In this document: one piece after another, positions 19,385 to 35,833 of the stretch | Layout: the number at the start of each line of letters is the position of its first letter | Numbering within the stretch: position 1 is the first letter of the stretch | From: an uncultured Nitrososphaerota archaeon | Lineage (GTDB): Archaea; Thermoproteota; EX4484-205; JAAOZP01 | DNA: 64,000 nt | Reading direction: 5' to 3' | NCBI GenBank assembly: GCA_964616835.1 | Contig: CAZTSG010000001.1 | Span: 8,830 to 72,829, forward strand | Program-made: the position numbers and the translations under genes | Notes under the pieces: model-generated | The model's input: only the letters and a program-made list of their open reading frames with translations | Databases searched by the model: none | Told to the model about the DNA's origin: nothing

Positions 19385-20145
19385 GCTGGCTTTACGTACC
19401 TCGCCTTCTCCTCCGGACTAAGCTCCCTGCAGCCCTTTGAGTCAACCACCATGACTTCGAAGTCATTACCGGTTGCAGTATCCCTCTGCATAGCCGCCAG
19501 TATTGCTTTGATCGCTGTGGGTATGGCTGACGAAGTGTCTATTGGAGTCTTGAGCTCCGCCTCCAGGTAGCCTAGGGCAACCGGGGAGCCTGACCCAGAG
19601 CCTGCGAAAACTTCTTTCGAAAACCCTCCGAGGGGGTCGAGCACGTAGAGGCTGGCGCCATCCCTATCGTAGCCGCCTATCATCAATTGTATGTAGAGCG
19701 GCGCCATCCGCGTGGAGGAGAGTATTATTGAAGCTATGTTTGCAGCGGCCTTAACAGGCATGTTTATGCCTCTCTCAAGCTTGTAAGTCCTCGCCTCCCA
19801 TTGAAGCGCCGCTATGAGTGCCTGCGCGTCAGCAACTCCTCCGGAGATGGTTGCAGCTATGTAATCGTCTATTTTAAGGATCTTCTTACCCCTTTTATGA
19901 GCTATGAAATAGTAGCCTTGCACGACCCTGGTGTCGGAGGCAAATATAACGCCGTCTCTACAGGATATTCCGACTGTAGTAGTCCCCCAGACGGGGGAAA
20001 CGCTTCCTGCTTTACCAAACCTTTTAGTAATGTTCTCCAAATCTCTTAACACCTCTAGAACCTTAGACCGAATCCTTAGGGAAAGGCTTAAAGATAAACC
20101 TTTCCCTGAAAACCTGTCAGGCTGTTGAAAGACAAGAGTAGGCAC
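19381..20145 (-). CDS. psmB: proteasome subunit beta (catalytically competent; propeptide then TTTVG)
   Basis: VWG|TTTVGISCRDGVIFASDTRV with Thr1, Asp17 and Lys33 conserved. The annotated start overlaps the divergent egsA start, so the real start is probably downstream (non-ATG). Confidence 0.8.
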   Translation of the reverse strand: MPTLVFQQPDRFSGKGLSLSLSLRIRSKVLEVLRDLENITKRFGKAGSVSPVWGTTTVGISCRDGVIFASDTRVVQGYYFIAHKRGKKILKIDDYIAATISGGVADAQALIAALQWEARTYKLERGINMPVKAAANIASIILSSTRMAPLYIQLMIGGYDRDGASLYVLDPLGGFSKEVFAGSGSGSPVALGYLEAELKTPIDTSSAIPTAIKAILAAMQRDTATGNDFEVMVVDSKGCRELSPEEKARYVKPA

Positions 20146-21189
20146 GTGATAAGTCTTCCCCGGCGCATAATACTTGGGGACGGGGCTGTAGACGACCTTG
20201 ACTCAAGCATAAGGGAGACGGGTGTGAAGAAAATCATTGTTCTGATGAGCAAAACCCCTTTAAAGATACTTGGTGACAGGATAAGGAAGATACTTGCTGG
20301 AAACGGCCTTCCGTTTAAAATAGTGCTCGTAGGGGGCGGGGACTCTTTCTCAGAGGCTAAGAGGATTGAAAAACTTTTCCTCCGTAGCAAGAGGGATAAG
20401 GCTGTTATCGTCAGCGTCGGAGGAGGTAGGGTAATAGATGCAGGCAAGATCATCGCGTGGAGGAGAGGCTTAGAATTCATAAGCGTCCCAACGGTTCCTT
20501 CTCACGACGGGATTGCAAGCCCCCTGGCCTCGGCCCCCAGGGGGAAGAGAAGATATTCTTTCTACACAGTCATGCCCTCTGTGATAATAGGGGACGTGTC
20601 TATTCTCGCTGCCGCACCCGACAGGTACTTCGGCTCGGGAGTGGGCGACCTCGTGGCTAAGTATACTGCGGTGAGAGACTGGCGTCTCTCCCACTCGCTC
20701 AGAGGAGAGTATTACGGCGAGTACGCTGCAAGCCTCGCGGAAAACATTGCGGACAGGATTATGAAATGCGCAGACATTATTGCGAGCGACAAGTTTGAGG
20801 GGGCGAGCATACTGATAGAGGCGCTCATACACTGCGGTGTCCTAATAGGCATAGCTGGGAGCAGCAGGCCCTGCAGCGGCTCGGAGCATCTCTTCAGCCA
20901 CGCGCTGGACCTCGTCGCTGGATACCCTGCTCTCCACGGTGAGCAAGTGGGTATTGGAACGATAATGATGAGCAAGCTTCACAACTGCGACTGGGAAAGA
21001 GTGAGGGAAACATTGTTAACAGTCAAGGCTCCTGTCTCAGCTAAGGACATCAACGTTCAAGAGAAGAAGGTAATCGAAGCACTAACCATAGCGCACACGA
21101 TAAGGCCTGAGAGATACACTATCCTGGGCGACAAGGGTTTGACGAGGAAGGCGGCTGAAGAGCTTGCCAGAAGCACCATGGTAATATGA
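20125..21189 (+). CDS. egsA: glycerol-1-phosphate dehydrogenase [NAD(P)+]
   Basis: 354 aa with TTG start. Strong similarity to archaeal EgsA throughout: SVGGGRVIDAGK, PSHDGIASP, AGSSRPCSGSEHLFSHALD, HGEQVGIGTIMM and ALTIAHTIRPERYTILGD. Confidence 0.8.
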   Translation: MKDKSRHVISLPRRIILGDGAVDDLDSSIRETGVKKIIVLMSKTPLKILGDRIRKILAGNGLPFKIVLVGGGDSFSEAKRIEKLFLRSKRDKAVIVSVGGGRVIDAGKIIAWRRGLEFISVPTVPSHDGIASPLASAPRGKRRYSFYTVMPSVIIGDVSILAAAPDRYFGSGVGDLVAKYTAVRDWRLSHSLRGEYYGEYAASLAENIADRIMKCADIIASDKFEGASILIEALIHCGVLIGIAGSSRPCSGSEHLFSHALDLVAGYPALHGEQVGIGTIMMSKLHNCDWERVRETLLTVKAPVSAKDINVQEKKVIEALTIAHTIRPERYTILGDKGLTRKAAEELARSTMVI

Positions 21190-21641
21190 TCCTGAAAATG
21201 GCGAAGTACATCTACTTAAGCCGGGGGATCAGGCCTGGGAGCGTCTTCACATACGTGGGTGAAGCATACGAGTGTATGCAGTGCAGCAACAGGGGGCGTT
21301 GCCACGGCGCATTAAGCATGGGCTTCGCATACAGGGTTGAGAGGACAACGGAGGGGGAGGGCGTGTACTGCATTCTCAGGGGTGACGAAGTAGTCCCGTA
21401 CGAGGCTTCCCTGGAACCACTGGTTCTTCTAGCGCCCTCGGGGAGGGTTAAAGAGGGGGCTGTGATGGAGCTTAGGCTCGACGACGCGTTCTGCAAGACG
21501 GATTGCGAGAGAATAGGGGAGTGCCCCATCCTGTTCAACGTTCTCATCGCGGGCCGTAGGGTTAAGGTTCTGGAGAGGCTCGGCGGCTTCGACTGCCCGG
21601 AGAGGAAACTAGTCCTGATTAAGGCTGAAATCCTTGATTAG
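21186..21641 (+). CDS. Cys-rich hypothetical protein (UPF0179-like?)
   Basis: 151 aa with multiple Cys (CMQCSNRGRCHG ... CKTDCERIGECP ... C). Start overlaps the egsA stop (ATGA). Confidence 0.3.
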   Translation: MILKMAKYIYLSRGIRPGSVFTYVGEAYECMQCSNRGRCHGALSMGFAYRVERTTEGEGVYCILRGDEVVPYEASLEPLVLLAPSGRVKEGAVMELRLDDAFCKTDCERIGECPILFNVLIAGRRVKVLERLGGFDCPERKLVLIKAEILD

Positions 21642-21647
21642 AGCGTT

Positions 21648-22367
21648 TTAAGAAGCCGTCCTCTCCTCTAGAGTTTTCTCAGCCGGCTCCCCGGGTGTTG
21701 CGAAAACATCCATGAACCTTACAGTCTTAACCCCCTTAATAATGCTCGTAACATCCTCGAAAACAGCCTTCTTGATTTGCTGAATGCCTTCTGAAAACAA
21801 AACCTTGTCTGGGAGCCTTACAGTAACAATATCCCCCTCCTTATCCACCTGCACCTCTTCTACGGAAGCCTCTGGGAGACGCCTGTTAACCAGGTACTTT
21901 ACCTTCTCCACATCGTCCTCCAGAACCCTCACTATCTTAAACCTGTAGATGAGCGTCTTACCGGCTAGCGGCGGGTTGAAATCAACCTGAACCCGCCCGC
22001 CGCTAATGTTTCTCACAATGCCTATTCTCCCATCCACCTCAACCAACGTACCCGGGGAAAGCTCCTGGGGTCTTGCAAACCTTCTCGCAGCGTAGGTCTT
22101 AACCTTGTTAGGGTCTCTGAAGCCGTATGCTTTCTCCGGGGGTATTTCAACAGTCCTCTCGACGCCGACTTCGCTCCTCAGCAATTCCTCCTCCCAACTC
22201 TCTAGGACCCATTTCCCCCCTAGGTAAACCAGCTTGGGAGAATACTTTTCACCCTCCTTGTATATCGATGCTTTCTTCGCCTCCTCCTCTATCGTCGTCT
22301 CTATGACGCTGCCTGTCTCCTTCACCGTGAGCGTGTAATCCACTAGTATTAGAGACCCTGTTTCCAT
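21648..22367 (-). CDS. FKBP-type peptidyl-prolyl cis-trans isomerase (long archaeal type)
   Basis: N-terminal FKBP fold signature LVDYTLTVKETGSVIETTIEEEAKKASIY, then an IF/insert domain and C-terminal domain. 239 aa. Confidence 0.65.
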   Translation of the reverse strand: METGSLILVDYTLTVKETGSVIETTIEEEAKKASIYKEGEKYSPKLVYLGGKWVLESWEEELLRSEVGVERTVEIPPEKAYGFRDPNKVKTYAARRFARPQELSPGTLVEVDGRIGIVRNISGGRVQVDFNPPLAGKTLIYRFKIVRVLEDDVEKVKYLVNRRLPEASVEEVQVDKEGDIVTVRLPDKVLFSEGIQQIKKAVFEDVTSIIKGVKTVRFMDVFATPGEPAEKTLEERTAS

Positions 22368-22413
22368 TCCTTGGGGACTGGCCTGCGGAACCGCTTATAA
22401 ATACTCTCCCGGC

Positions 22414-22971
22414 TTAAAAAGCCTCGTCGGAAGACGTTAAAGCCCTTATCCTCTCAACACCCTGTATGCTCCCTATGTACTCGAATACCTTCTTAGGAAC
22501 CAGTTGGCTCCAGTCCTCGCCCGATAGTATTCTCCTCCTTATCTCTACGCCGGAGTATTTCTCGCGCTCAAGGTACGGTATAGGCCTAACTTCGTAGCCT
22601 GCCTCGGTGAAAAGCCTCTTGGTGAAAGGCTGGTTGGTATACACTATTTCGAAGGGCGGCGACATGGCTTCAACAATCTTTACCCATAGGAAGTGCATAG
22701 CCGGCACATCGGGGACACCGGTTACGATGCACCTCCCACTATCTATGCCAGTTTCTTCGAAGGCGAGACGCAGCATCTGGAGCCTTTCCCCGAACGTGAA
22801 TGGATTATCCTTCTCATGGCTCGTCAGAGAGCTTCCCACAGCTATGATGACGCAGCCGTGGTTTGAAAGAATGTGCTTTATAGCGTGCACGTGACCGTTG
22901 TGAACAGGCTGGAAGCGGCCGATGTAGAGAGGGTTCCTCCCCATTCCGAACCCTTTAGCTCGCTGGAGCAT
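22414..22971 (-). CDS. nadM: nicotinamide-nucleotide adenylyltransferase (archaeal NMNAT)
   Basis: Signature YIGRFQPVHNGHVHAI (GRFQPxHxGH). 185 aa. Confidence 0.8.
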   Translation of the reverse strand: MLQRAKGFGMGRNPLYIGRFQPVHNGHVHAIKHILSNHGCVIIAVGSSLTSHEKDNPFTFGERLQMLRLAFEETGIDSGRCIVTGVPDVPAMHFLWVKIVEAMSPPFEIVYTNQPFTKRLFTEAGYEVRPIPYLEREKYSGVEIRRRILSGEDWSQLVPKKVFEYIGSIQGVERIRALTSSDEAF

Positions 22972-22994
22972 TGATAAACATTAGCCTGCTCCGA

Positions 22995-24083
22995 TTAACG
23001 CTTAAAACCTGCTCCACTAACCCTGTAGCCCCCGGGCGAGCCTACTTCACCGTATACTTTGAACCTTACCGGTAGGAAGAGCTCTACGAGACTTATTGTC
23101 GTCAGAGTATGCAGCGTAACCTCATGCGTCCTCAAGGCTGAAACCCCGTCTGCGAGAGCCGCGTAGACAACAAGCTGGTCGGCAAGGTTCCTGTCTGCAG
23201 GAGCCCTTTGCTCAACCTGTCTGATGAACTCTGAAACCGCCTCGCCGCCAACCTTCTCAGAAGGCTTACCCCTCTCCCCCAGCGCGCTTGATGCGAAAAC
23301 CGTGCCGTCCCCAAGCGTCCCGATTATCAATACTCCGCAGCCAGGGTCTAGGGAGGCATTAGGCTCCTCCCCGCTCAGAACCTCGTACTCTACCGTCGGC
23401 TCAACCCCGAGCCTGCTCCTTATCTGGGAGGAGGCTGAGCCCGCGATCCTCTCGGCCACGTGCCTCGGCAGCTTGGAGCTGTAGACGAAAACCCTAACGC
23501 TCTTCAAGCCTGGGAAATCGGTGATTTGAAAAGGCTTTAGGCGCTCGACAGGCCTTGACCTAAACCGCACTATCCCCCCGCCCCTCGGGTAGAAACCTCT
23601 CCGCTCAACGCTTAAGTCGACTACGTAACCCGTTCTCGAAAGATTCCTCGCCAAGACTTCTCTAACATAGTCTATGGGGGGTGCCCTAGGGTTGTCAGTA
23701 CCCCCTTTGAGAACCAGCGTAACCTCTCTCCCGGAGAAAGCTAGGACGGGCATCATTGCTTGAAGAACAAGAGATATGCTTCCGGCGGTGCCGACGTCAA
23801 GCTCGATGTCTGAAGCCTTGACTTCTCCGGGGTAGAAGAGTATCTGGCTGGAGCCAACGCTCAGCCCTTCAACCCTGGCCCCGGTTAGACTCGCCACAGC
23901 CTTCACGGCGGCGAGGTGCTGAGGCCTTAACCCAGGGTTTGAACGCTTAGCCCTGATGTTGAACACTCTAACCGGTTTCTTCAAGAGTGCTGAAAGAGCC
24001 ACGGCTGTCCTTAAGACCTGCCCGCCGCCCTCGCCCATGGAGCCGTCTATTTCAAGCGTTTCAACCATGCTGAGGCTTCCCAC
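22995..24083 (-). CDS. rtcA: RNA 3'-terminal phosphate cyclase
   Basis: N-terminal GSMGEGGGQVLRTAVALSAL, matching the RtcA signature. 362 aa. Confidence 0.8.
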   Translation of the reverse strand: MGSLSMVETLEIDGSMGEGGGQVLRTAVALSALLKKPVRVFNIRAKRSNPGLRPQHLAAVKAVASLTGARVEGLSVGSSQILFYPGEVKASDIELDVGTAGSISLVLQAMMPVLAFSGREVTLVLKGGTDNPRAPPIDYVREVLARNLSRTGYVVDLSVERRGFYPRGGGIVRFRSRPVERLKPFQITDFPGLKSVRVFVYSSKLPRHVAERIAGSASSQIRSRLGVEPTVEYEVLSGEEPNASLDPGCGVLIIGTLGDGTVFASSALGERGKPSEKVGGEAVSEFIRQVEQRAPADRNLADQLVVYAALADGVSALRTHEVTLHTLTTISLVELFLPVRFKVYGEVGSPGGYRVSGAGFKR

Positions 24084-24119
24084 GCCCAGTCATAAAAGCT
24101 TATTTCCGACCCCGGCCGT

Positions 24120-24743
24120 ATGTGGAGCAAAGGTGAATTGCTGGGTATGGGTGAAATAGTGCCGGGTGCAACCGTCGTCGGGATAGTGTACGATAACGGT
24201 GTCATACTTGGTGCTGATAGGAGGGCGGCGTACGGCACTTTCGTAATCGGGAAATCGGTTAAGAAGATTTTTCAAATAACACCGCGGATAGGTCTCGCCT
24301 CAGCCGGATTGATCTCGGACGTCCAGACGATAGTGAGGGAGCTCAATTACCATGCTAGAATGTTCAAGTACAATACCTCTAGGGAGATAACTGCTAAAGC
24401 CCTTTCAAAACTATTGTCAAATATCCTCTTCGCGAACAGGCTTTTTCCACTCATAACTCAGACGCTCATAGGAGGGTTTACTTTCGACGCTCACGGAATA
24501 TACGTGCTGGACGCGCTGGGCTCAGTAATAGAGGACAAGTATGCTGCAGCGGGGAGCGGAACCGAGATAGCGCTCGGAATACTGGAGGCAGAGTACAGGG
24601 ATGGCATGAACAAGAGCGAAGCCAAGAACCTTGCGCTGAAAGCAATAAGAACAGCCCTGGAGAGGGATTCTGCAAGCGGGAACGGTATAGACCTCCTGAT
24701 AATAGATAGGGCTGGGACTGTGGAAGAGAACTACCCTGGTTAA
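24120..24743 (+). CDS. psmB: proteasome subunit beta paralog with Ala at the Thr1 position (probably non-catalytic)
   Basis: Aligns to beta subunits (G|ATVVGIVYDNGVILGADRRA ... GKSVKK) with Asp17 and Lys33 conserved. The nucleophile position reads Ala. Confidence 0.7.
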   Translation: MWSKGELLGMGEIVPGATVVGIVYDNGVILGADRRAAYGTFVIGKSVKKIFQITPRIGLASAGLISDVQTIVRELNYHARMFKYNTSREITAKALSKLLSNILFANRLFPLITQTLIGGFTFDAHGIYVLDALGSVIEDKYAAAGSGTEIALGILEAEYRDGMNKSEAKNLALKAIRTALERDSASGNGIDLLIIDRAGTVEENYPG

Positions 24744-24871
24744 ACCCCTTTTAAACGAATAATCCAAACTGGTTTCCTCGTCTTCATCCACCCTCTGCTC
24801 GGGAACATCGACCAATACCAAGACTTGAACGAGCTCGGAGCTTAAAAGACGATTGGAGAAAACCCAAGAGG

Positions 24872-25198
24872 ATGAGCGAGCGGCTCGAGGAATTAAAGAT
24901 TCTCGCGAGACACTACGGTGAGCTGAGGCACCAAGTAATAGCCAGCGTGAAGAAAATAAACGATTACTCCCTAATACTCTTCAAAGCATTCCTAGAGTAC
25001 GCGGAGAAAAGAAAAGGGGAGAACCTGGAGCCCCATGCTCTTCTAAACGAGTTTCTCAACACGCTGGCCCTAGACAGGGATGAGGACAGGGGGACAAGAG
25101 CCTCCCTAGCCAGAAGATTCTACAAGCTTGCTGAAAAACATGTTCGAAACCCCTGCGAGCAAAAAAGCCTCCTGCAATACCTTAAGCACCAACCATAG
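24872..25198 (+). CDS. hypothetical protein
   Basis: 108-aa ORF between the beta subunit gene and tuf. No family recognised. Confidence 0.3.
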   Translation: MSERLEELKILARHYGELRHQVIASVKKINDYSLILFKAFLEYAEKRKGENLEPHALLNEFLNTLALDRDEDRGTRASLARRFYKLAEKHVRNPCEQKSLLQYLKHQP

Positions 25199-25289
25199 AA
25201 CACCACTGTCTCCCGATCCCATTAAATCAAACCATTATCTTACAGTGAAAAACCGTCGAAAGATATTTGGGTCTATCGCTTTAGAGAAA

Positions 25290-25305
25290 ACATTGAAAAA
25301 ACAAG
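25290..25305 (-). terminator. oligo-T tract just downstream of tuf
   Basis: The plus-strand A7 run (gaaaaaac, ~25295-25301) is a T7 run on the tuf transcript, about 16 nt past the stop. Confidence 0.35.
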
Positions 25306-25316
25306 TTGCGGGGAAA

Positions 25317-26642
25317 CTACTTGGCTTCGAAAGGAACCTTCTCAGGAATCTCAGTCACGATGCCGGCGGCGACCGTCATACCCATGTCTCTGATCGCAAA
25401 CCTGCCGAGCTGCGGAAACTCAGAGTAAACCTCGATGGCAATCGGCCTCAGGGGCCTGAACTTGACGATAGCAGCGTCACCAGTCTTCAAGAAGTCAGGC
25501 TTCTCCTGAATAACCGCGCCAGTACGAGGGTCAATCTTCTTCAGAAGCTCCTCGAAGGTGCAGGCAACCTGCTCAGTATGCACGTGAAGCACAGGAGTAT
25601 AGCCCGCAGCAATAGCAGTAGGATGCCTGATAACGATAATCCTGCCTACGAAAGCCTTCGCGACAGTCGGCGGGTTCTCAGGATACCCCATAACCATACC
25701 TCTCCTCAACTCCTGCTTGGAAACACCCTTGACAGCCATGCCGACATTGTCACCGGGCTCAGCCTTCTCAAGCTGCGTATGATGCATCTCAATAGTCTTC
25801 AGCTCAACAATCTTATCCAGAGGCCTAATGACAACCCTAGTGTTAGGCTTCAACACACCGGTCTCAACCCTGCCCGCGGGAACAGTGCCAACACCCGGAA
25901 TAGTGAAAACCTGCTGAAGAGGAATCCTCAAAGGCTTGTCAACAGGCCTAGGCGGAGGCTGAAACGCGTCGAGAGCCTCAATCAAAGTAGGACCCTTATA
26001 CCAAGGCATCTTATCACTAGGCTTAACAAGATTATCACCAGTCCAGCCGCTGATAGGAATAATCGGAATCGGGTTCTTCTCAAGGTTAAAGCCGATACGC
26101 CTCAGCAAATCCTCAATGTTCTTCTTAACCTCGTTAAACCTGTCCTCGCCCCAATTAACAGAAGGATCATCCATCTTGTTAACGCCAATAACAATCTGTC
26201 TAACACCCAAAGTGAAAAGCAGAAAAGCATGCTCAGTAGTCTGGCCCTCAGGACTCACACCAGCCTCGAACTCACCCTTCTTCGCAGACACAATCAGCAA
26301 AGCACTATCAGCCTGACTAGCACCAGTAATCATATTCTTCACAAAATCACGGTGGCCAGGCGCATCAATGATCGTATAGTAATATTTCTTTGTTTCAAAC
26401 TTCACGTACGCAGCATCAATAGTAACACCACGCTCACGCTCCTCCTTCAACTTATCCAGCACCCACGCAAACTTGAAAGTATCCCCGAGACCAGTCTTAG
26501 CAGACTCAGCCTCCAGCTCCCTCATCTTCCTCTCATCAACGTAACCAGTCAAGTAAAGCAAGTGACCAGTAGTAGTACTCTTGCCGTGGTCCACATGTCC
26601 GCAAACGACGAGATTTAGGTGTGGTTTGCTTGACGAACTCAT
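25317..26642 (-). CDS. tuf: translation elongation factor 1-alpha (aEF-1A)
   Basis: G-domain motifs GHVDHGKST, DAPGH and NKMD. 441 aa. Confidence 0.95.
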   Translation of the reverse strand: MSSSSKPHLNLVVCGHVDHGKSTTTGHLLYLTGYVDERKMRELEAESAKTGLGDTFKFAWVLDKLKEERERGVTIDAAYVKFETKKYYYTIIDAPGHRDFVKNMITGASQADSALLIVSAKKGEFEAGVSPEGQTTEHAFLLFTLGVRQIVIGVNKMDDPSVNWGEDRFNEVKKNIEDLLRRIGFNLEKNPIPIIPISGWTGDNLVKPSDKMPWYKGPTLIEALDAFQPPPRPVDKPLRIPLQQVFTIPGVGTVPAGRVETGVLKPNTRVVIRPLDKIVELKTIEMHHTQLEKAEPGDNVGMAVKGVSKQELRRGMVMGYPENPPTVAKAFVGRIIVIRHPTAIAAGYTPVLHVHTEQVACTFEELLKKIDPRTGAVIQEKPDFLKTGDAAIVKFRPLRPIAIEVYSEFPQLGRFAIRDMGMTVAAGIVTEIPEKVPFEAK

Positions 26643-26649
26643 TTTTCTT

Positions 26650-26700
26650 TCCTCCCTTGCTGTTTCATTAGCCTGATGGGGGGCTATTTAAGGTTTAAGG
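26650..26700 (-). promoter_or_regulatory. putative tuf promoter (TATA-like TTAAATA) and Shine-Dalgarno GGGAGG
   Basis: The reverse complement of 26643-26700 reads ccTTAAATAgcccccc...gcaagGGAGGaaagaaaaATG, with SD at -12 and a TATA-like element upstream. Confidence 0.3.
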
Positions 26701-27123
26701 TTTCATTATGGCAGTGATTTTTTACTGAGTGCTTTTTTTAGTTGTTTTTCCTGAGGGTGGTTGGGCGATGTGTTTAGCGTTGCTTTCTTTTCAAGATTCT
26801 CTATAAGTAAAATTTGGACAGTGGGGCTCTTCAAGCAAGCCTTCAGGCTGGCTTTCTTTCATACTAACGTTTATGTAAATCGTAAATCCGACTAAGACTC
26901 GGAGGCAGTTATGCTTAAAAGAATATTCGCATCTTATTGTTAGTGGATGGGCGTTAGGGAGCGCTTCATAAGCTCGATAGAGTACCTCCGCAAACTAGGG
27001 TTCTTCGAAGAATTGCTGGAAACGATTGAGGTTATGCAGGATGAGGATCTGAGTGGTTGAAAAAACAGGCTAGCATTTCTTTTCACCATAGTTCAAAAAT
27101 GGCTGGGTTGCTAGTGTCGCAAA

Positions 27124-27155
27124 AGTTTATAAATTATAATTCATAATTCATAATT
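27124..27155 (+). promoter_or_regulatory. direct-repeat operator/TATA region upstream of vapB
   Basis: tttataaattataattcataattcataatt contains the tandem unit ataattc/ataattcataatt directly abutting the vapB start. Confidence 0.35.
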
Positions 27156-27356
27156 ATGAGTACCATACCCGTGAGTAAGGAGACGAAGAAAAGATTGGAG
27201 AGCCTTAAGGGGGAGAAAGCATGGGATGAGTTTCTGAACGAGCTTGCGAACATAGCTCTAAGTGAAAACAGGCTTAAAAATAGGAAAAGAATGCAGAAAC
27301 TTCTGGAAATTGGGTATGATGAAGTCAGGGTTAAAAAATGGGCGAGAGAATACTAG
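27156..27356 (+). CDS. vapB: antitoxin (VapB-like small DNA-binding protein)
   Basis: 66-aa charged protein immediately upstream of a PIN-domain gene that it overlaps by 19 nt. Confidence 0.55.
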   Translation: MSTIPVSKETKKRLESLKGEKAWDEFLNELANIALSENRLKNRKRMQKLLEIGYDEVRVKKWAREY

Positions 27357-27700
27357 TGGATACAGATTGTCTAATCGATTACTATAGGGGGGAACTAGAG
27401 TTAAACCCGGAGGATTCACACCATGTTTCGGAAATAACTGTCTACGAGTTCATCAGGGGGACGAGGAATGTGAAGGAAGCTAAGAGGATACTGGAGAGAT
27501 CTTTCAGCATTGTTTGGCTCGACAACGAGATTCTGGAGAAAGCCTCGGAAATATGGAGGAGACTCAAGGCCTCAGGCAGGCTTGTTGAAGACAGGAACCT
27601 AATAATAGGGAGCACGGCAGTAGTGAAGAGGCTCAAGCTGTTAACGAGAAACATTAAGCATTACGAGGGGCTGAAAACATACGGGTTAGTTTTTTATTGA
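27338..27700 (+). CDS. vapC: PIN-domain ribonuclease toxin VapC
   Basis: N-terminal ILVDTDCLIDYY acidic motif typical of PIN. 120 aa. Confidence 0.75.
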   Translation: MGERILVDTDCLIDYYRGELELNPEDSHHVSEITVYEFIRGTRNVKEAKRILERSFSIVWLDNEILEKASEIWRRLKASGRLVEDRNLIIGSTAVVKRLKLLTRNIKHYEGLKTYGLVFY

Positions 27701-27837
27701 AAAATCTTCTTCGACTCTTTATGCATTTTTTCGTAGCAGTATATGGGTGTCTAACAGTTTTATCTTAAACCGCGGTGAAAACATAACTGTGGAAGCGGTT
27801 AAAAAACAGGATTGTTGCAGCAAGAAGTAGCGTAACA

Positions 27838-27985
27838 ACAGCTTTTCTCCTTAATTCGCTCCACCGGTAAGGCGAATAAGGCGGTGGTTGAAATATTGGC
27901 AGACTATTTCAAAGTGAAGAAGAGCGCGGTCGGAATGGTTAAGGGTGAAGCATCAAGAGAGAAAGTCTTTCAGCGTGGAGAATGA
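27838..27985 (+). pseudogene. C-terminal fragment of a DUF167 (UPF0235/YggU-like) gene with no start codon
   Basis: A 49-codon frame reads ...STGKANKAVVEILADYFKVKKSAVGMVKGEASREKVFQRGE*, matching the conserved GKAN...SR.K C-terminal half of DUF167 proteins. A TAA lies immediately upstream in frame and the N-terminal half is absent. Confidence 0.4.
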
Positions 27986-28060
27986 TTGCTGAATAAGCCG
28001 GTTTTCCTGAGGCTTGTTAGGTTTTTGCTATGAAATCATAGACGAGTTGGCGTGCACCAC

Positions 28061-28447
28061 TTAGAGACAGAAAATGAGGTCAGGTACCTTGATGTCTCCT
28101 AAGAGGACGTGAGCAGCTTCCCTGCATCCTCCTTTACATTTTTCCAGCATCGAGTAGCCTTCGCACATTTTAGGAGTATAACGTAGATTTATGAATCCTC
28201 TTATGTATTCAGATTTCTCGTAGAGTTCTTGGGGGTCTGATTCCACGCAGTTTCTGACCACTGTTGGAGAATGATTGCAGACTTTTAGTCCTCCTGAAGG
28301 ATCTATGGCGCAATGAATGTTTTTACCGGCCATACATCCTTCTTTCAACATGAACATTGTATACTTAAATTTTTCGGCTACCGAACGCGAGTTCCAGTGA
28401 TGTAAAAACCCCAAGATTACTCGCCTAGAGCGGTCTGAATGATACAC
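28061..28447 (-). CDS. orphan Cys-rich protein resembling the C-terminal SPASM/twitch domain of radical SAM maturases (no radical SAM core)
   Basis: 128 aa. A Cys pattern ending ...CEGYSMLEKCKGGCREAAHVL resembles the end of a SPASM domain. No CxxxCxxC radical SAM motif in the ORF or upstream. Confidence 0.35.
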   Translation of the reverse strand: MYHSDRSRRVILGFLHHWNSRSVAEKFKYTMFMLKEGCMAGKNIHCAIDPSGGLKVCNHSPTVVRNCVESDPQELYEKSEYIRGFINLRYTPKMCEGYSMLEKCKGGCREAAHVLLGDIKVPDLIFCL

Positions 28448-28657
28448 TCGGCGGGGTCGGGCTCCGATGGAAGATTAACGAATTTAAATGCTAATTGGCT
28501 TCTGGTTTTCAAGGTGTTTTAACTGGGTTAACCTGTTAACCAGAAACACTAAGGATTATGGTTTGCTTAAAGCAATACTAGCCAGTTTTCATCAAGTTAT
28601 CTTAAGGATGATTATTGATTCAAGAATGAGGTTGCTTCGCTTAGTGTAGACTTAGAT

Positions 28658-30094
28658 TTATAAGAGCGTGCTCTGGCTTACGGTGCTTTTCTCCTTGTGT
28701 GAAATGATTTTCACAACCCTTCCCTTTTTTCTTAACTCTTCAACGCTGGAGGCTCCGGCGTAGCCCATTGCAGCCCTTATGCCTGAAGTGAACTCGCCTA
28801 TAACTGATGATGCATCTCCGCGATACGGCACCCATATCTCGGTTCCCTCAGGTATTTCCTTCGCGAACGTTGCGTACCTGTCTAGAGCCATTCTCTTCTG
28901 CCTCGCGGACTGGCTGCCCATGCCCCTGTGTAGCTTGAAGTATTTGCCGTTTATTATGGTCATGGGGCTCGGGCTCTCTTTGCAGCCTGCTAAAACATAC
29001 CCGAGCATGGCGCATGATGCTCCCAATGCTATTGCTAACGCGACGTCTCCCGGGTTCCTGACTCCGCCGTCTGCTATCACCGGTATTTTCAAACCTAGTT
29101 CTTCAAGAGCGTCTGCAGCCTGGGCTACTGCGAAGAGTGTGGGCGCTCCCGCCCTAGTGATCTCTGTCGTTATGCATACTGAGCCGCTTCCTATCCCTAC
29201 TCTGAGCCCTGCGACGTCTTCTATTTTAGAAACCGAGTCAAGCACCCCCTGCTTAGTCCCCAGGTTCCCGATTACAATGTCTACGTCTACTTCTTTCACA
29301 AGCCTCCGCGTTGCTTCTATCACGTTCCTGTTGTGGAAGTGTGCGACATCTATCACTAGGGCGTCCGCGTGCTTCGCCAGCATCCTGGCTCTTTCGATGT
29401 CGAATGGGGATACTGCAGCGGCGACCCTAAGCCTGCCCTCAGAGTCTCTAGTGGCCTCCTTATACTCTCCTCTAAGCGCCACATCCTTGTAGGTTATTAG
29501 TCCGACGAGCCTCTTGTTATCGTCTACAACCGGCAGCTTCTCAACCCTGTGCTTCTTCATGAGCTCCACTGCTTCCTCGGGAGTGATGCTTGGGCTTGCT
29601 ACTACGACGTCCTTAGTCATAGCTTCCTCAACCCTTATCGAGGGGTTTGCGAACCTCACGTCCCTCCCAGTTATTATCCCGATCAGTCTGTTGTCTTCAA
29701 CAACTGGGAGACCCGATATCTTGTGTCTCCTCATTATTTCAGCAGCCTCTCCGACAGTAGCATCCTTGTTTATCGTTATCACGTCTCTGATTATGAAAGA
29801 CTCTGCTCTCTTCACTGCTTTAACCATCTCCAGCTCTTCCTCTGCGGAGCAGTTCCTGTGCACGACGCCTATTCCACCGTGTCTCGCGAGCGCTATCGCC
29901 ATTTCAGACTCGGTTACGGTATCCATCGGCGAAGATACTAAGGGGATGTTTATCGGGATGTTTTTCGAAAAACTTGTTCTCAGATCTATATCCCTAGGCT
30001 CGATCTCGGAGAAGCCGGGTAGCAGGATAACGTCTTCAAAATTGAAGGCCGTCTCAGCCTTTTCAAATTTCTCCTGGAACGCCCCCATATTCAA
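28658..30094 (-). CDS. guaB: inosine-5'-monophosphate dehydrogenase with tandem CBS domains
   Basis: GGIGVVHRN, two CBS domains, catalytic loop IGIGSGSVCITT. 478 aa. Confidence 0.9.
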   Translation of the reverse strand: MNMGAFQEKFEKAETAFNFEDVILLPGFSEIEPRDIDLRTSFSKNIPINIPLVSSPMDTVTESEMAIALARHGGIGVVHRNCSAEEELEMVKAVKRAESFIIRDVITINKDATVGEAAEIMRRHKISGLPVVEDNRLIGIITGRDVRFANPSIRVEEAMTKDVVVASPSITPEEAVELMKKHRVEKLPVVDDNKRLVGLITYKDVALRGEYKEATRDSEGRLRVAAAVSPFDIERARMLAKHADALVIDVAHFHNRNVIEATRRLVKEVDVDIVIGNLGTKQGVLDSVSKIEDVAGLRVGIGSGSVCITTEITRAGAPTLFAVAQAADALEELGLKIPVIADGGVRNPGDVALAIALGASCAMLGYVLAGCKESPSPMTIINGKYFKLHRGMGSQSARQKRMALDRYATFAKEIPEGTEIWVPYRGDASSVIGEFTSGIRAAMGYAGASSVEELRKKGRVVKIISHKEKSTVSQSTLL

Positions 30095-31714: not shown

Positions 31715-32022
31715 TTATGGTCCTCCAGTATGTTGGATTCCCCTTGGTCCACTATTCCTATAACAGCAACTGGGTATTTTAAGCTTAACGCCTTCCCTAA
31801 CGCTACGCGAGAACCCTCATAGACTATTGACGGAGTCTTTGAGAGGTCCAGGGCGTTTTTAAGCATCCCGAGATACGGCTCCGGCAGCTTTGAGACGTAT
31901 ATTACTCCCTCCAGCTTACCCCGTAGCACAAGCCTATAGACCTCGTTGAAACCAGTTACGAAGCTACCTGTCTTAGCAAGGAGCTCAAGCCTGCTGCTTA
32001 GAGACGCTTTCTCCTCCGACAT
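31711..32022 (-). CDS. rpl30e: 50S ribosomal protein L30e
   Basis: 103-aa L30e/L7Ae-fold sequence (GKLEGVIYVSKLPEPY...VAVIGIVDQG). Conserved position after rpoA. Confidence 0.85.
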   Translation of the reverse strand: MSEEKASLSSRLELLAKTGSFVTGFNEVYRLVLRGKLEGVIYVSKLPEPYLGMLKNALDLSKTPSIVYEGSRVALGKALSLKYPVAVIGIVDQGESNILEDHK

Positions 32023-35000
32023 CTCCCGAATCCACCTTGCTCTTCGTAAAGCCCTCTATATCAACGTATACCTTGACCATGCCTGTTCCAGCATATATCT
32101 CTGAGCCTGCAAGCACTCTCTCAGTCATGCCGAGAAGCTTATCCTCCATGCCTGCTACAGCCCCCTCCACTAGGACTTGGACGGCTCTTTCGAAAGCTGC
32201 CTTGGCGAGGACGCTCTGCTTGCTCCCGCTTACCCCGTGCCTGCCTATCTGTTTCACAGTCCCGTCTTGAGTCATAGCGCTCGCGACGAGCGATAGGTGC
32301 CTCCAGTCAACGTCCAAGCCCTGCTCGTTCAAAGTCTTCCACATTTCGTTTATTAAAGCAGCCCTAGCCGCCTCTATGCCAAGCACCTCGGCTATCTCAT
32401 GGATATCGTTGGTAACTGTCCTCGTGTAGTCAACCTCCGGAATGTTGAAGACCTCTGCGAGGTTGCTTCCCTCCGTTATTATGCAGTACTCCTTGTTCTC
32501 CTCCTTTAACAAGACTCCCTTAACTCCGGTTATTCCGCTTACAGGCGTCTTCCTTATCTTTGATTCAAACTTCTCAGCATCGTTCTTAATGGGTATTTCG
32601 ATGGTGCCGTCGCTCTTAACGTTGAACCTTACGTTGAGCGTCTTAAAGACCTTCTGCACATCTTCTTCTGAAAGACCTCTTTCAGCCAACCATTCTTTAA
32701 CCGGATATATGACGAGATAGTCGTATGCCGTGGTTGATTTCAAACCTATTCTAGCCACGTCCTCTATCGTCGTGTAAACCATTTTCTTAGCGACTCTGAG
32801 CGCTCTACTATAGTCCTCGTTGTACGGTTTCTTCAAATAGACAGTCATCATCGGCGTCTTCGGCGTCTTCCTCGCGTCGAGCAGTTCGATAAGCCTCGGC
32901 AGCCCTAGGGTTACGTTCGCCTCCCTTACGCCGGCGTAGTGGAAGGTTCTCAGAGTCATCTGGGTACCGGGTTCCCCTATGGATTGCGCTGCAACAATCC
33001 CCACGCTTTCCCCAGCTTCTACAAGCGCCCGCTTATACTCTTCAACCACCCTCTCCACAACTTTCCTAGCGGCTGAAGCTGGGAGACGCTTAGAGATTAT
33101 CGCGTGGAAAGTCTCCTTCTTAACGTTGAGCGGGAGTATCCTGCCGTGCTCCTCGATCATCTTCTTAACGGTCTGCCTGCTTGCTGGACTACCCTTCTTA
33201 GGTATGGACAGCAAGTATTCTTCAACTATTCTGAAAGCATCGACAGACTTCCCATGGTCGCTCTTAGATGGGTCTACACCATCCTCGCCGTATATTATGT
33301 CAACTATGTTCCCGTAGGAGTCTCTCACAGTCCCATCGTACTCTACTCTAAGAGATTCCAACGCGTGTATTAGTCTGCGCTGCAAGTATCCGCTCTGCTG
33401 GGTTCTAACTGCGGTGTCCACGAGGGATTCGCGCCCACTCATAGAGTGGTAGAAGAGCTCTATGGGTGAAAGCCCCATGTAATAATTAGCTTTTATGAAT
33501 CCTCTCGCAAGGGGACCGAGGTCTCCTCTTCGGAAATGCGGCAGAGGCCTCTCAAAGTACCCTTTGAATATTCTCTTACCCCTCAGAGCCTGCTGCCCCA
33601 GGCAGCCGGATATCTGTCCTACGTTAAGGTCTGAGCCCCTCGCACCAGTCTTAGTCATCACGACCATGCTGTTGTCCAGCCCTAGGGTTGACGAGACTAG
33701 GTTTCCAACTCTGCTCCTAACGTTTGAAAGAGCGTCCATTATGTAGGCCTCTAGGCTCTCCTCCTCGCTCATCCCGGGGATCCTCTTTATCTTGCCCTTC
33801 TTCCACTCCTCAAGCAGCTTCTCAACCTCGGCATCAGCCTGGTCCACTTCTCTACTGACTCTTTCCTGAACGTTCTTAGGCAGCTCCACATCCCTGTAGC
33901 TGAAGCTGAAGCCTCTTAGAAGAAGGAATTCTCTAACCATTTTCTCGAATGCTGAGATAAACCTGTGGCCTTCCTCGGCTCCGTACTTCTTTATTATCCT
34001 GTGTAGGATGGTGTCCGCCTTCTCAGCGCCTATGGAGGCCTTGTCGATAACCCCGGATATTATCTTCCCGTTCTTTATGACTATCTCCGCCTCCTCCTTG
34101 CTCGCAGCGTCTCCCACGCTAGTCTTATTCACGTAGTTAAAGTCCTTCCTCAGCAACAGGCTGACTGCCTGCCGGCCTGACCACAGGGGTTCCGGCGTCT
34201 TAACCTCCGGCTCAGGAAGCTCGCCCTCATAGCCCGCGGCATACACTATTCTCGCAAACTCCTCCTTAGTAAGATAAGTGTCTTTCCTAGTGAGGAGGTA
34301 GGCTCCTGTTATGAAGTCTCTTATCGCACCCATGATGGGTGCGCCATACCTCGGAGTAAGGTAGTGGTTCTTAACACCTAGGAGCATGCTCGTCTCTACG
34401 GAGGCCTCTAGGCTCTGCGGCACGTGCAGGTTCATTTCGTCGCCGTCGAAGTCCGCGTTGTAAGGCGGGCAGACGCTCGGGTTGAGTCTAAAAGTCTTCC
34501 CCGGAAGCACTTTCACCCTGTGCCCGAGCATTGAGAGACGGTGGAGCGAGGGCTGCCTGTTGAAAATCACGAAATCACCGTCCAGCAAGTGTCTTTCGAC
34601 AACGAAACCTATGTCGAGTGCTTCAGCGAGGGTATCCCTGTTCTCAACAAACTGGAGCTTATGCTTAGCGCCGCCGGGCCTAATTATGTACTCTGAACCA
34701 GGGTGTGTGAAAGGCCCGTTTCTGACGAGCTGCATCAACCAGTCCCTATTCCAGTACGTGACTCTCTCAGGTACTGTGAGTATTTTAGCAACCTCCACCG
34801 GGACGCCGACTTCATCAATATCGAGATAGGGGTCGGGAGATATTACTGTCCTAGCGGAGAAGTCGACCCTCTTTCCTGAGAGGTTCTTCCTGAAACGGCC
34901 CTCCTTCCCCTTCAGCCTTTGCGCGAGCGTCCTAAGCGTCTTACGCGTCCTGTGCTGTGCCGGGAGTACCCCAACGGCCTCGTTGTCGAAATAAGTCGTC

Positions 35001-35833
35001 ACGTGATACTGTAGAAGATCCTCATGGTCCTGTATTATTAAGGGGGAGGCTCCGGACTCTATGTACTCCCTTATTCTGCGCGCTGTCCTTATTATGTCGA
35101 CAAGCTTATGCGTTAAATCGTCTTCAGACCTCTCGCCGGTTTCAAGTATTATCGAGGGTCTAACCTGTATGGGTGGAACCGGCAGGACTTCTATAACGTA
35201 CCACGCTGGATGAGCAACCTCAGGGTCTATGTTCAGAAGCCTAAGGTCATCGTTAGGGATCGAGTTTAAACGCTCCCTTATTATCCGGGAGTTTAGAAGC
35301 CTAAGGGCTCCGTCAGGATCCCTCTCGTAGAACTTCGTAGGTCTCTCAAGCCTGATCTGGTATTTCTCAGCCCCGCAGTGCGGGCACCTGTTTGCCCTCC
35401 TAACCTCGTCCTTTATCTGGTCGAAAATCTGCTCGGGCACGATGCCGTACAGCTCCTCGTACTCCCTCATCTTCTCCCTGTAATGGCTTATCCTATCGTT
35501 CGGCAGCAGTATTCTGCCGCATTGCCTGCAGGTTGATTGCAGAACGCGTTCGATCTCCCGCGCGAACGAAACATGTATCACTGGGACGGGCAGCTCTATG
35601 TGTCCGAAGTGTCCCGGACATTTGTCGGGCAGGTTGCCGCAAGTCTTGCACCTCTGCCTAGGCTCTATGGTTCCTAGGCGCGTATCCATTATCCCGCCTG
35701 GGACGGAGAGACCGTCCTGGTCATACGTCTCGTCAGTCGTCACTTCCATCACGGAGAGCTTCCTGATCTCAGCTGGGGATAGTACTCCGAACTTTATCGA
35801 ATCCAGCTGCTTTATCTCAACTTCCTGACTCAT
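31985..35833 (-). CDS. rpoA: DNA-directed RNA polymerase subunit A encoded as one continuous ORF (A' and A'' portions in frame, 1282 aa)
   Basis: N-terminal zinc motifs, NADFDGDEMN catalytic loop, then no stop, and the A''-type region begins (KKMIEEHG... VGIVAAQSIGEPGTQMTLRTFHYAGV bridge/trigger loop). Junction codons verified at ~33150-33200. Confidence 0.85.
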   Translation of the reverse strand: MSQEVEIKQLDSIKFGVLSPAEIRKLSVMEVTTDETYDQDGLSVPGGIMDTRLGTIEPRQRCKTCGNLPDKCPGHFGHIELPVPVIHVSFAREIERVLQSTCRQCGRILLPNDRISHYREKMREYEELYGIVPEQIFDQIKDEVRRANRCPHCGAEKYQIRLERPTKFYERDPDGALRLLNSRIIRERLNSIPNDDLRLLNIDPEVAHPAWYVIEVLPVPPIQVRPSIILETGERSEDDLTHKLVDIIRTARRIREYIESGASPLIIQDHEDLLQYHVTTYFDNEAVGVLPAQHRTRKTLRTLAQRLKGKEGRFRKNLSGKRVDFSARTVISPDPYLDIDEVGVPVEVAKILTVPERVTYWNRDWLMQLVRNGPFTHPGSEYIIRPGGAKHKLQFVENRDTLAEALDIGFVVERHLLDGDFVIFNRQPSLHRLSMLGHRVKVLPGKTFRLNPSVCPPYNADFDGDEMNLHVPQSLEASVETSMLLGVKNHYLTPRYGAPIMGAIRDFITGAYLLTRKDTYLTKEEFARIVYAAGYEGELPEPEVKTPEPLWSGRQAVSLLLRKDFNYVNKTSVGDAASKEEAEIVIKNGKIISGVIDKASIGAEKADTILHRIIKKYGAEEGHRFISAFEKMVREFLLLRGFSFSYRDVELPKNVQERVSREVDQADAEVEKLLEEWKKGKIKRIPGMSEEESLEAYIMDALSNVRSRVGNLVSSTLGLDNSMVVMTKTGARGSDLNVGQISGCLGQQALRGKRIFKGYFERPLPHFRRGDLGPLARGFIKANYYMGLSPIELFYHSMSGRESLVDTAVRTQQSGYLQRRLIHALESLRVEYDGTVRDSYGNIVDIIYGEDGVDPSKSDHGKSVDAFRIVEEYLLSIPKKGSPASRQTVKKMIEEHGRILPLNVKKETFHAIISKRLPASAARKVVERVVEEYKRALVEAGESVGIVAAQSIGEPGTQMTLRTFHYAGVREANVTLGLPRLIELLDARKTPKTPMMTVYLKKPYNEDYSRALRVAKKMVYTTIEDVARIGLKSTTAYDYLVIYPVKEWLAERGLSEEDVQKVFKTLNVRFNVKSDGTIEIPIKNDAEKFESKIRKTPVSGITGVKGVLLKEENKEYCIITEGSNLAEVFNIPEVDYTRTVTNDIHEIAEVLGIEAARAALINEMWKTLNEQGLDVDWRHLSLVASAMTQDGTVKQIGRHGVSGSKQSVLAKAAFERAVQVLVEGAVAGMEDKLLGMTERVLAGSEIYAGTGMVKVYVDIEGFTKSKVDSGDVGGESVSKQQA

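What the first reader, a model, noticed from the sequence alone, without database searches (positions are those of the whole stretch)
26643..28657. Accessory island between tuf and guaB: VapBC pair plus two decayed gene fragments in 2 kb of mostly non-coding DNA
This segment interrupts an otherwise tightly packed core region. It holds a 513-bp gene-free stretch, a vapBC toxin-antitoxin pair, a start-less C-terminal DUF167 fragment, and an orphan SPASM-like Cys-rich ORF lacking its radical SAM core. Coding density is far below the surroundings, and a ggttaacctgttaacc palindrome lies at ~28527-28542. That pattern fits a degraded integrated element or a hotspot of gene decay.
Basis: partly seen in the sequence, partly recalled or inferred. 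Interest (0 to 1): 0.5.

Follow-up and report, generated by a model that had tools for sequence, protein, structure and literature searches.

The report
Gene-decay patch with one VapBC module
This 2-kb stretch of an uncultured hot-spring archaeon holds one toxin-antitoxin gene pair, still under purifying selection, and the wreckage of four other genes at a spot where related genomes are rearranged; it is an ordinary piece of genome turnover, not a new system.

Summary
In a Brockarchaeota-like archaeon, window 26643-28657 lies between the aEF-1alpha gene ("tuf") and the IMP dehydrogenase gene ("guaB"). Only 27% of it is intact coding sequence, against 94-98% in the flanks, and its GC is 40-42% against 50-55%.

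It contains:
- an intact-length vapBC pair under purifying selection, although VapC has Asn where PIN toxins have their third catalytic Asp;
- a DUF167 pseudogene made by three deletions; the orthologue is intact in the closest relative, L174;
- the last 104 of about 332 codons of a radical SAM/SPASM gene;

The reported palindrome is real but lies one base off, at 28526-28541. It simply encodes V-N-L-L-T of that vapC relic, and such palindromes are not enriched here.

Synteny with relatives breaks at about 26704 and 28633, and every relative carries different DNA there. The roughly 950-bp vapBC-DUF167 block has dS about 0.1-0.2 against a relative whose core genes are saturated (dS 1.6-1.9), which suggests lateral exchange. 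There is no integrase, no att repeats and no tRNA.

Verdict: a gene-decay and rearrangement hotspot. Ordinary; low interest.

The parts
26643..26703 (-). Upstream region of the aEF-1alpha gene (promoter and 5' leader). This is the last stretch colinear with the relative L086.
   Evidence: The blastn match to L086 runs to window 26703. Identity to L174 is 90%. The TTAAATA-like box on the minus strand is read from the sequence; its function is inferred.
26704..26946 (.). Anonymous non-coding DNA that appears to evolve neutrally.
   Evidence: It matches only L174, at 85% identity with several indels. That is close to the synonymous divergence of neighbouring genes (dS 0.2-0.3). There is no Rfam hit.
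26947..27015 (+). Relic of the first 22-23 codons of a 197-aa gene of unknown function (inside ORF 26947-27060).
   Evidence: Identity is 86% over residues 2-23 of the intact 197-aa protein at L003 4536-5129. A longer, frameshifted copy lies next to EF1a in L083/L086. No Pfam or NCBIfam family matches it.
27040..27992 (+). The vapB-vapC-DUF167 block, shared as a unit with L174 and L170.
   Evidence: Identity to L170 6824-7572 is 88%, and to L170 8103-8234 is 89%. Against L170, dS is 0.21 (vapB), 0.19 (vapC) and 0.10 (DUF167). For S7, S12 and NusA it is 1.6-1.9.
27126..27158 (+). A/T-rich box (TTTATAAATT) and a 7-3-7 palindrome (CATAATTCATAATTATG) overlapping the vapB start. Putative promoter and operator.
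   Evidence: (I14). The stretch 27061-27155 is 98% identical to L174, which makes it the best-conserved non-coding piece. The function is inferred.
27156..27356 (+). vapB antitoxin, 66 aa, intact.
   Evidence: DUF7557 E 5.6e-7 (29.3 bits, cut-off 25); VAPB_antitox E 3e-4, below its cut-off. dN/dS against L174 is 0.08.
27338..27700 (+). vapC PIN-domain toxin, 120 aa, intact in length, with Asn87 (27596-27598) in place of the third catalytic Asp.
   Evidence: PIN E 1.7e-6. PDB matches are 1y82, 7by2 (VapC) and 1v96 (VapC4). dN/dS against L174 is 0.13. The alignment shows N where L174, three L170 PIN proteins and 7by2 all have D.
27858..27992 (+). DUF167 (YggU-family) pseudogene: codons of about residues 30-77 only, with two frameshifting deletions.
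   Evidence: Compared with the intact L174 and L170 genes, 246 nt are missing at 27860, taking the promoter and about 29-33 codons. A further 7 nt are lost after APPV and 5 nt at 27969. PF02594 E 1e-13 for the frame-corrected piece. Identity to the intact proteins P0011 and P0012 is 88-90%.
28061..28375 (-). 3' relic (104 of about 332 codons) of a radical SAM/SPASM gene. CX2CX5CX3C has become CX2YX5CX3C.
   Evidence: tblastn of the reconstructed L088 protein matches residues 229-332, E 5e-42. The full-length reconstruction aligns end to end with TIGR04303, NirJ2 and PqqE models, below their cut-offs. The window copy carries changes of its own at otherwise conserved sites (G to R, E to N, C to Y, A to V, P to L).
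28358..28462 (.). Relic of the intergenic region of a toxin-antitoxin locus. It supplies the N-terminal 25 codons of the chimeric 128-aa ORF.
   Evidence: Identity is 73.6% over 110 nt to L170 3908-4016, E 3e-7. That L170 stretch lies between two divergent TA pairs.
28524..28589 (+). 3'-end relic of a second vapC (inside ORF 28488-28649). It contains the reported palindrome at 28526-28541, which encodes V-N-L-L-T.
   Evidence: Direct repeat D1. The local DNA alignment to vapC 27629-27693 scores 27, against 9.9 +/- 1.3 in 1000 shuffles. The peptide VNLLTRNTKDY matches the canonical VapC C-terminal motif, as in 7by2 LITRNTKDF.
28634..28657 (-). 3' flank of the IMPDH gene; the right-hand limit of the variable DNA.
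   Evidence: L163 is 97% identical across the IMPDH 3' end. Homology ends at window 28634, after which L163 carries an unrelated 194-aa gene.

Best explanation
The segment is a small variable region at a synteny breakpoint of a Brockarchaeota-like genome. It lies between the S12-S7-IMPDH cluster and the aEF-1alpha gene. Accessory genes are gained there, rearranged and then lost by deletion.

What remains is one type II toxin-antitoxin pair and four gene relics.
- vapBC has been kept under purifying selection. Its toxin now carries an Asp-to-Asn change at a catalytic position, so it is probably weakened or inactive (inferred).
- The relics are the 5' end of a 197-aa gene, a DUF167 gene cut by three deletions, the 3' third of a radical SAM/SPASM gene, and the 3' end plus promoter region of a second vapBC.

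Shown: the homologies, the deletions, the breakpoints and the selection signatures.

Inferred: that the relics have no function; that the roughly 950-bp vapBC-DUF167 block was exchanged laterally between lineages; and that the losses of DUF167 and the rSAM gene are recent and independent in each lineage.
For: Organism and reality of the sequence
- The EF1a protein is 90% identical to Brockarchaeota MAGs.
- Two further independent assemblies of the same species carry the same island.

Boundaries
- L086 is colinear with window 17608-26703 and then differs: psi-197, psi-rSAM, EF2, thermosome.
- L163, 97% identical in IMPDH, diverges at 28634.
- L090 has S12-S7-IMPDH followed by other genes.
- L003 shares nothing but EF1a with the window.

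DUF167
- It is intact in L174 and L170. Three deletions in the window are mapped base by base.
- The remaining codons are barely changed (Nd 2/83), so the loss is recent.

rSAM/SPASM
- The relic equals residues 229-332 of the parent protein.
- Against L174: dN 0.039, dS 0.47 over 45 codons. L174's copy is cut at a different point, has an in-frame stop immediately upstream of the retained codons, and has a 1-nt deletion. The two inactivations are therefore recent and independent.
- Against L086: pN 0.096, pS 0.93.
- Copies in L083/L086, L084, L088 and L089 each carry different lesions.

Second vapC relic.

vapBC is alive at the sequence level: dN/dS 0.08 and 0.13. The D87N change.

Cassette exchange: dS is 0.1-0.2 against 1.6-1.9 for core genes on the same L170 contig.

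No RNA gene or stable structure was found.
Against: - The low dN/dS of the SPASM C-terminal codons (0.08 against L174) could also mean that a short C-terminal peptide is still used.
- The lateral-exchange inference rests on one relative. Its long contig is seen in two assemblies that may derive from the same reads, so a chimeric contig cannot be fully excluded.
- Only 64 kb of the genome is visible. A second intact DUF167 or rSAM copy elsewhere cannot be ruled out.
- No expression data exist.
- The order of the rearrangements that produced the present arrangement could not be reconstructed. The 197-aa and rSAM relics are both inverted relative to EF1a compared with L086.
Confidence: 0.8

Rival explanations
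1. The whole 2 kb is the degraded remnant of a single integrated mobile element, such as a provirus or integrative element, that once inserted between the EF1a and IMPDH genes.
For: - GC is low relative to the flanks.
- A TA module is present, which is common on mobile elements.
- The content is absent at this position in L086, L163 and L090.
- The vapBC-DUF167 block shows a much younger divergence than core genes.
Against: - There is no integrase, no recombinase and no capsid or replication gene remnant.
- There are no flanking direct repeats and no adjacent tRNA.
- The pieces have different histories. The 197-aa and rSAM relics are also next to EF1a in L086, where vapBC and DUF167 are absent. 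The vapBC-DUF167 block sits in a different context in L170.
- The two flanks are not contiguous in any relative, so there is no empty site.
Confidence: 0.08
2. Some 'relics' are functional small genes. In particular, the roughly 90-aa C-terminal SPASM ORF (P0001, called as a gene by JGI) would act as a stand-alone Cys-rich, Fe-S-binding mini-protein.
For: - Its codons show purifying selection: dN/dS 0.08 against L174, with 10 synonymous and 4 non-synonymous changes; pN 0.096 against L086.
- ORFs of 90-91 aa covering this part exist in two species.
Against: - The closest relative's copy is cut to about 45 homologous codons, with a stop codon immediately upstream of them and a terminal frameshift.
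- The window copy has lost one Cys of the CX2CX5CX3C motif and has four other changes of its own at conserved sites.
- The N-terminal 25 codons of the 128-aa ORF derive from unrelated TA intergenic DNA.
- The start of the 91-aa ORF in L083/L086 is out-of-frame sequence.
- The selection signal is equally explained by recent, independent inactivation.
Confidence: 0.05
3. The low-density patch is an assembly or binning artefact, for example a chimeric join between the EF1a and IMPDH contigs.
For: The window comes from a metagenome-derived sequence. The synteny on the two sides differs among relatives.
Against: - The JGI contig L001 carries the whole EF1a-island-IMPDH stretch at 99.9% identity, with 0 differences in the island.
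- The ENA contig L002 carries EF1a and the island up to window 28607, with 2 differences.
- L174 independently confirms the EF1a-vapBC-DUF167-SPASM order.
Confidence: 0.02

Closest known systems
VapBC type II toxin-antitoxin systems (PIN-domain toxin, small DNA-binding antitoxin), abundant in archaeal genomes
   Same: Two small overlapping genes with the antitoxin first. The toxin matches the PIN domain and PDB VapC structures. The antitoxin matches DUF7557/VapB. A palindrome lies at the promoter. Both genes are under purifying selection. The module sits in variable DNA, and a degraded paralogue lies nearby.
   Different: The toxin has Asn instead of the third catalytic Asp and His at the fourth acidic position, so RNase activity is doubtful. 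The NCBIfam VapC equivalog scores are far below their cut-offs.
DUF167 / YggU family (PF02594, TIGR00251), small proteins of unknown function
   Same: The retained 41 residues are 88-90% identical to intact 77-aa family members in relatives and match the C-terminal half of the profile.
   Different: The window copy lacks its promoter, its start and about 29-33 codons, and has two frameshifting deletions. It is a pseudogene.
Radical SAM enzymes with a C-terminal SPASM domain (PqqE, AhbD/NirJ, GeoRSP and peptide-maturase type)
   Same: The relic aligns with the C-terminal 85-90 positions of several such models. The reconstructed parent from a relative aligns end to end with them, including the CxxxCxxC motif.
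   Different: Only 31% of the gene is left and there is no radical SAM core. One auxiliary-cluster Cys is replaced by Tyr. The parent does not reach the cut-off of any named subfamily.
Prokaryotic genomic islands, integration hotspots and regions of genome plasticity
   Same: Deviant GC, low coding density, TA modules, different content in every relative, and location at a synteny breakpoint.
   Different: No recombinase, no att repeats, no tRNA target. At 2 kb it is a residue rather than an island. In L170 the equivalent region is larger, with at least four TA pairs.

Membership tests
VapBC type II toxin-antitoxin | Two adjacent small genes in one operon, antitoxin upstream, with stop and start overlapping or abutting | tested here: met
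   vapB 27156-27356 and vapC 27338-27700 are on the same strand and overlap by 19 nt.
VapBC type II toxin-antitoxin | Toxin has a PIN domain | tested here: met
   PF01850: 29.0 bits against a cut-off of 23.6, covering profile positions 1-113 of 120. PDB VapC matches.
VapBC type II toxin-antitoxin | Conserved acidic active-site residues of the PIN domain (Asp, Glu, Asp, plus a less conserved fourth) | tested here: not met
   D8 and E37 are present. The third position is N87, where L174 VapC, three L170 PIN proteins and 7by2 have D. The fourth is H107.
VapBC type II toxin-antitoxin | Antitoxin of a recognised VapB or DNA-binding family | tested here: met
   DUF7557: 29.3 bits against a cut-off of 25. 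VAPB_antitox: 22 bits, below its cut-off of 27.9.
VapBC type II toxin-antitoxin | Growth inhibition by the toxin and neutralisation by the antitoxin | not testable with these tools
   Needs expression experiments.
DUF167 / YggU | Complete domain of about 75 residues in an intact ORF | tested here: not met
   Only profile positions 34-73 of 76 are matched. There is no start codon, and three deletions separate it from the intact orthologues.
Radical SAM / SPASM enzymes | N-terminal CxxxCxxC motif and radical SAM core | tested here: not met
   Absent. Homology to the parent starts at residue 229 of 332. There is no PF04055 hit.
Radical SAM / SPASM enzymes | SPASM domain with the full Cys pattern, including CX2CX5CX3C | tested here: not met
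   TIGR04085 scores 23.6 bits, below its cut-off of 27. The motif reads C-EG-Y-SMLEK-C-KGG-C; relatives have Cys at that position.
Integrated mobile element / genomic island | Recombinase or integrase gene, or a remnant of one | tested here: not met
   No such family appears among the Pfam or NCBIfam hits for any ORF of the island.
Integrated mobile element / genomic island | Flanking direct repeats (att) and/or a tRNA target | tested here: not met
   No flanking repeat pair was found. The nearest tRNAs are more than 11 kb away.
Integrated mobile element / genomic island | Deviant composition and variable presence among relatives | tested here: met
   GC 0.39-0.46 against 0.50-0.56. The content differs in L086, L163, L090, L174 and L170.

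The most novel reading that the evidence does not exclude
The roughly 950-bp vapB-vapC-DUF167 block (27040-27992) is a self-contained cassette that moves between Brockarchaeota species without a recombinase of its own. It would land in the variable slot between the S7 cluster and the EF1a gene. DUF167, whose function is unknown, would travel with the toxin-antitoxin pair because it is functionally tied to it.
Probability: 0.12. Interest if true: 0.45.

Novelty: new member of a known kind. Interest (0 to 1): 0.2.

Why it matters
This matters mainly as a clean worked example. Comparison with three or four related metagenomic contigs lets the decay of a small accessory region be read almost base by base: the deletions in DUF167, independent truncations of the same rSAM gene in sister lineages, and a toxin losing a catalytic residue in one lineage and its reading frame in another.

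It is useful for annotation. The 90-128-aa Cys-rich ORF, ORF 26947-27060 and ORF 28488-28649 should not be called genes. It also gives a modest hint that vapBC cassettes are exchanged among Brockarchaeota.

It does not reveal a new system and does not bear on a long-standing question.

Tried and rejected
- Non-coding RNA in the gene-free parts. Rfam at gathering threshold on the window, Rfam at E<=1 on 26500-28800, and ARAGORN gave nothing in the island.
- Folding of the well-conserved spacer 27701-27865. The z-scores were +0.28 and -0.62 on the two strands, so there is no sign of structure.
- Flanking direct repeats or att sites: none. The bacterial-type promoter and terminator scan gave no more sites than shuffles did.
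- A decayed N-terminal half of DUF167. I first read 27760-27855 as this, with in-frame stops. The alignment with L174 and L170 refutes that reading. The DNA there is the conserved spacer upstream of DUF167, and the N-terminal codons were removed by a 246-nt deletion. Only the A-P-P-V codons just before the 7-nt deletion are genuine.
- PDB sequence search with the SPASM ORF: no hit.
- Pfam and NCBIfam for ORF 26947-27060, ORF 28488-28649, the 197-aa L003 protein and other neighbours: no family.
- A single inversion to explain the orientation differences from L086. This does not work, because both relics are inverted but keep their order.
- L087 as evidence of rSAM decay. I discounted it because the contig looks like an error-prone long-read assembly, with many frameshifts in neighbouring genes too.
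- The palindrome as a signal. I rejected this because such palindromes occur at the background rate and this one is explained by coding sequence.
Full report
**Source and reality of the sequence.** The flanking genes are the archaeal aEF-1alpha gene (25317-26642, minus strand) and an IMP dehydrogenase gene with CBS domains (28658-30094, minus strand). S7, S12, NusA, L30e and the RNA polymerase subunits lie beyond IMPDH. The EF-1alpha protein is 90% identical to two Candidatus Brockarchaeota MAGs and at most 75% identical to anything else in the GTDB species set. That phylum was described from hot-spring and vent MAGs (PMC8065059, found). Two other assemblies of the same species cover this locus at 99.9% identity. 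L001 (JGI 3300022546) spans the whole island with no difference inside it. L002 (ENA) ends at window 28607 and has two differences in the island. The island is therefore not an assembly artefact.

**The observation.**
- Intact coding sequence covers 545 of 2015 nt (27%). The JGI gene calls give about 94.5% and 98% coding on the two sides.
- GC drops to 0.39-0.46, from 0.50-0.56 outside.
- The 16-nt palindrome is at 28526-28541, one base off from the reported position.
- There are 33 palindromes with 7-nt arms and 0-4 nt spacers in the 64-kb window and two in the island, which is the background rate.

**vapBC.**
- vapB (66 aa) matches DUF7557 above its cut-off and VapB_antitox below its cut-off.
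- vapC (120 aa) matches the PIN domain above its cut-off and the PDB entries 1y82, 7by2 (VapC) and 1v96 (VapC4).
- The genes overlap by 19 nt.
- A 7-3-7 palindrome overlaps the vapB start. The 95 nt upstream are the best-conserved non-coding DNA of the island, at 98% identity to L174.
- Against the closest relative, L174, dN/dS is 0.08 for vapB and 0.13 for vapC. Both have therefore been kept by selection.
- The window's VapC has Asn87 where L174's VapC, three other PIN proteins and the VapC of 7by2 have the third catalytic Asp. It has His at the fourth acidic position.
- From established knowledge of PIN-domain nucleases, which depend on these acidic residues for metal binding, I infer that the toxin is weakened or inactive. 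This is not shown.
- In L170 the same vapC is frameshifted to 82 aa.

**DUF167.** The fragment matches TIGR00251 and PF02594. It is 88-90% identical to intact 77-aa proteins in relatives. In L174 the order EF1a(-), vapB, vapC, DUF167 is the same as in the window, and DUF167 is intact. The three-way alignment shows three deletions in the window:
- 246 nt at 27860, removing the promoter and about 29-33 codons, with a GCT microhomology at the junction;
- 7 nt just after the A-P-P-V codons;
- 5 nt at 27969.

The surviving codons have hardly changed (2 non-synonymous and 4 synonymous differences in 35 codons). The loss is therefore recent. No second DUF167 copy lies in the window.

**The SPASM ORF.**
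- It hits SPASM and the C-terminal ends of several radical SAM/SPASM models, all below their cut-offs.
- Database relatives (P0002-P0010) are longer fragments of one gene.
- A 332-aa reconstruction from L088 bridges a frameshift and includes CxxxCxxC. It aligns end to end with the GeoRSP, NirJ2, PqqE and mycofactocin maturase models.
- The window keeps residues 229-332 only, at 28375-28064.
- The 25 N-terminal codons of the 128-aa ORF are not from this gene. They match the intergenic DNA of a TA locus in L170.
- The window copy has changes of its own at conserved positions, including Cys to Tyr in CX2CX5CX3C.
- Its codons nevertheless bear the mark of purifying selection. Against L174 there are 10 synonymous and 4 non-synonymous differences in 45 codons. 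Against L086, pN is 0.096 and pS is 0.93.
- L174's copy is cut at a different point. A stop codon lies immediately upstream of the codons it retains, and it has a 1-nt deletion near the end.
- The simplest reading is that the gene was alive until recently and was inactivated independently in each lineage.
- The copies in L083/L086, L084, L088 and L089 each have different lesions. I discounted L087 as a noisy long-read contig.

- The start of a 197-aa gene. ORF 26947-27060 begins with 22 codons that are 86% identical to the start of an intact 197-aa protein in L003. A longer, frameshifted copy sits next to EF1a in L083/L086.
- The 3' end of a second vapC. Window 28524-28589 is homologous to the last 65 nt of the resident vapC (local score 27, against 9.9 +/- 1.3 in shuffles). 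It encodes VNLLTRNTKDY, the canonical VapC C-terminal motif. The palindrome is the V-N-L-L-T codons.
- Together with the TA intergenic relic at 28358-28462, this looks like a second vapBC locus gutted by a deletion.

**Context in relatives.**
- L086 (EF1a 87% nt identity) is colinear with window 17608-26703. It then carries psi-197, psi-rSAM, EF2 and a thermosome gene.
- L163 (97% nt identity in IMPDH) diverges at 28634 into an unrelated gene.
- L090 has S12-S7-IMPDH followed by other genes.
- L174 shares 25310-28215 and then continues with a beta-propeller gene.
- L003 shares only EF1a.
- The island therefore sits on a rearrangement breakpoint with edges at about 26704 and 28633.
- I could not derive the present order from the L086 order by one inversion.

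**Mobility.**
- There is no integrase, no att-like repeat and no tRNA.
- However, the block 27040-27992 recurs in L170 inside a TA-rich region about 5.6 kb from S7.
- Against L170, dS for vapB, vapC and DUF167 is 0.21, 0.19 and 0.10. For S7, S12 and NusA on the same contig it is 1.93, 1.60 and 1.78.
- That tenfold gap indicates lateral exchange of the block, with the caveat that it rests on one relative's contig.

**Negative searches.** No RNA family, tRNA or stable fold was found in the non-coding parts.

**Verdict.** The finding is correct as an observation, and its gene-decay interpretation is supported. It is an ordinary small region of genome plasticity: one VapBC module with a probably crippled toxin, plus four gene relics. 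Interest is low.

Noticed in passing
window 27596-27598 (VapC codon 87): The resident VapC has Asn where PIN toxins, including the orthologue in L174, have the third catalytic Asp. The same gene is frameshifted in L170. The toxin seems to be decaying before the antitoxin.
   Followed up: partly
L083/L086, L084, L088, L089, L174 and the window (rSAM/SPASM homologues): Every copy of this radical SAM/SPASM gene that could be examined on its contig is disrupted, each by different lesions. No recovered homologue is full length (P0004-P0006 were not examined). Yet the protein sequence is well conserved (59-81% identity). This suggests parallel recent loss across lineages. One of the lesions, the single frameshift in L088, could be a sequencing error.
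   Followed up: partly
window 24744-25314 (ORF 24872-25198, 108 aa, no family): The other side of the EF1a gene is also variable. This stretch has no counterpart in L086, and L174 diverges from the window right after the EF1a stop (25310). EF1a is thus a lone conserved gene between two variable spots.
   Followed up: partly
window about 31985-35833 (minus strand): The RNA polymerase largest subunit is called as one 1282-aa protein carrying Rpb1 domains 1-5. It is not split into A' and A'' as in most archaea.
   Followed up: no
window 39751-39892 (+): Rfam finds a 142-nt tRNA match (46.9 bits) that ARAGORN does not report. This is presumably an intron-containing archaeal tRNA.
   Followed up: no
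L170 3261-7373: In this relative the vapBC-DUF167 block lies in a TA-rich region. That region holds at least four toxin-antitoxin pairs (PIN with MazE-like or other antitoxins) and a pyrimidine-dimer glycosylase gene.
   Followed up: no
window 27701-27860: The spacer between vapC and DUF167 is 95% identical to L174 and is also conserved in L170. That is better than neutral DNA nearby (83-85%). It has no ORF family, no Rfam hit and no significant fold.
   Followed up: partly
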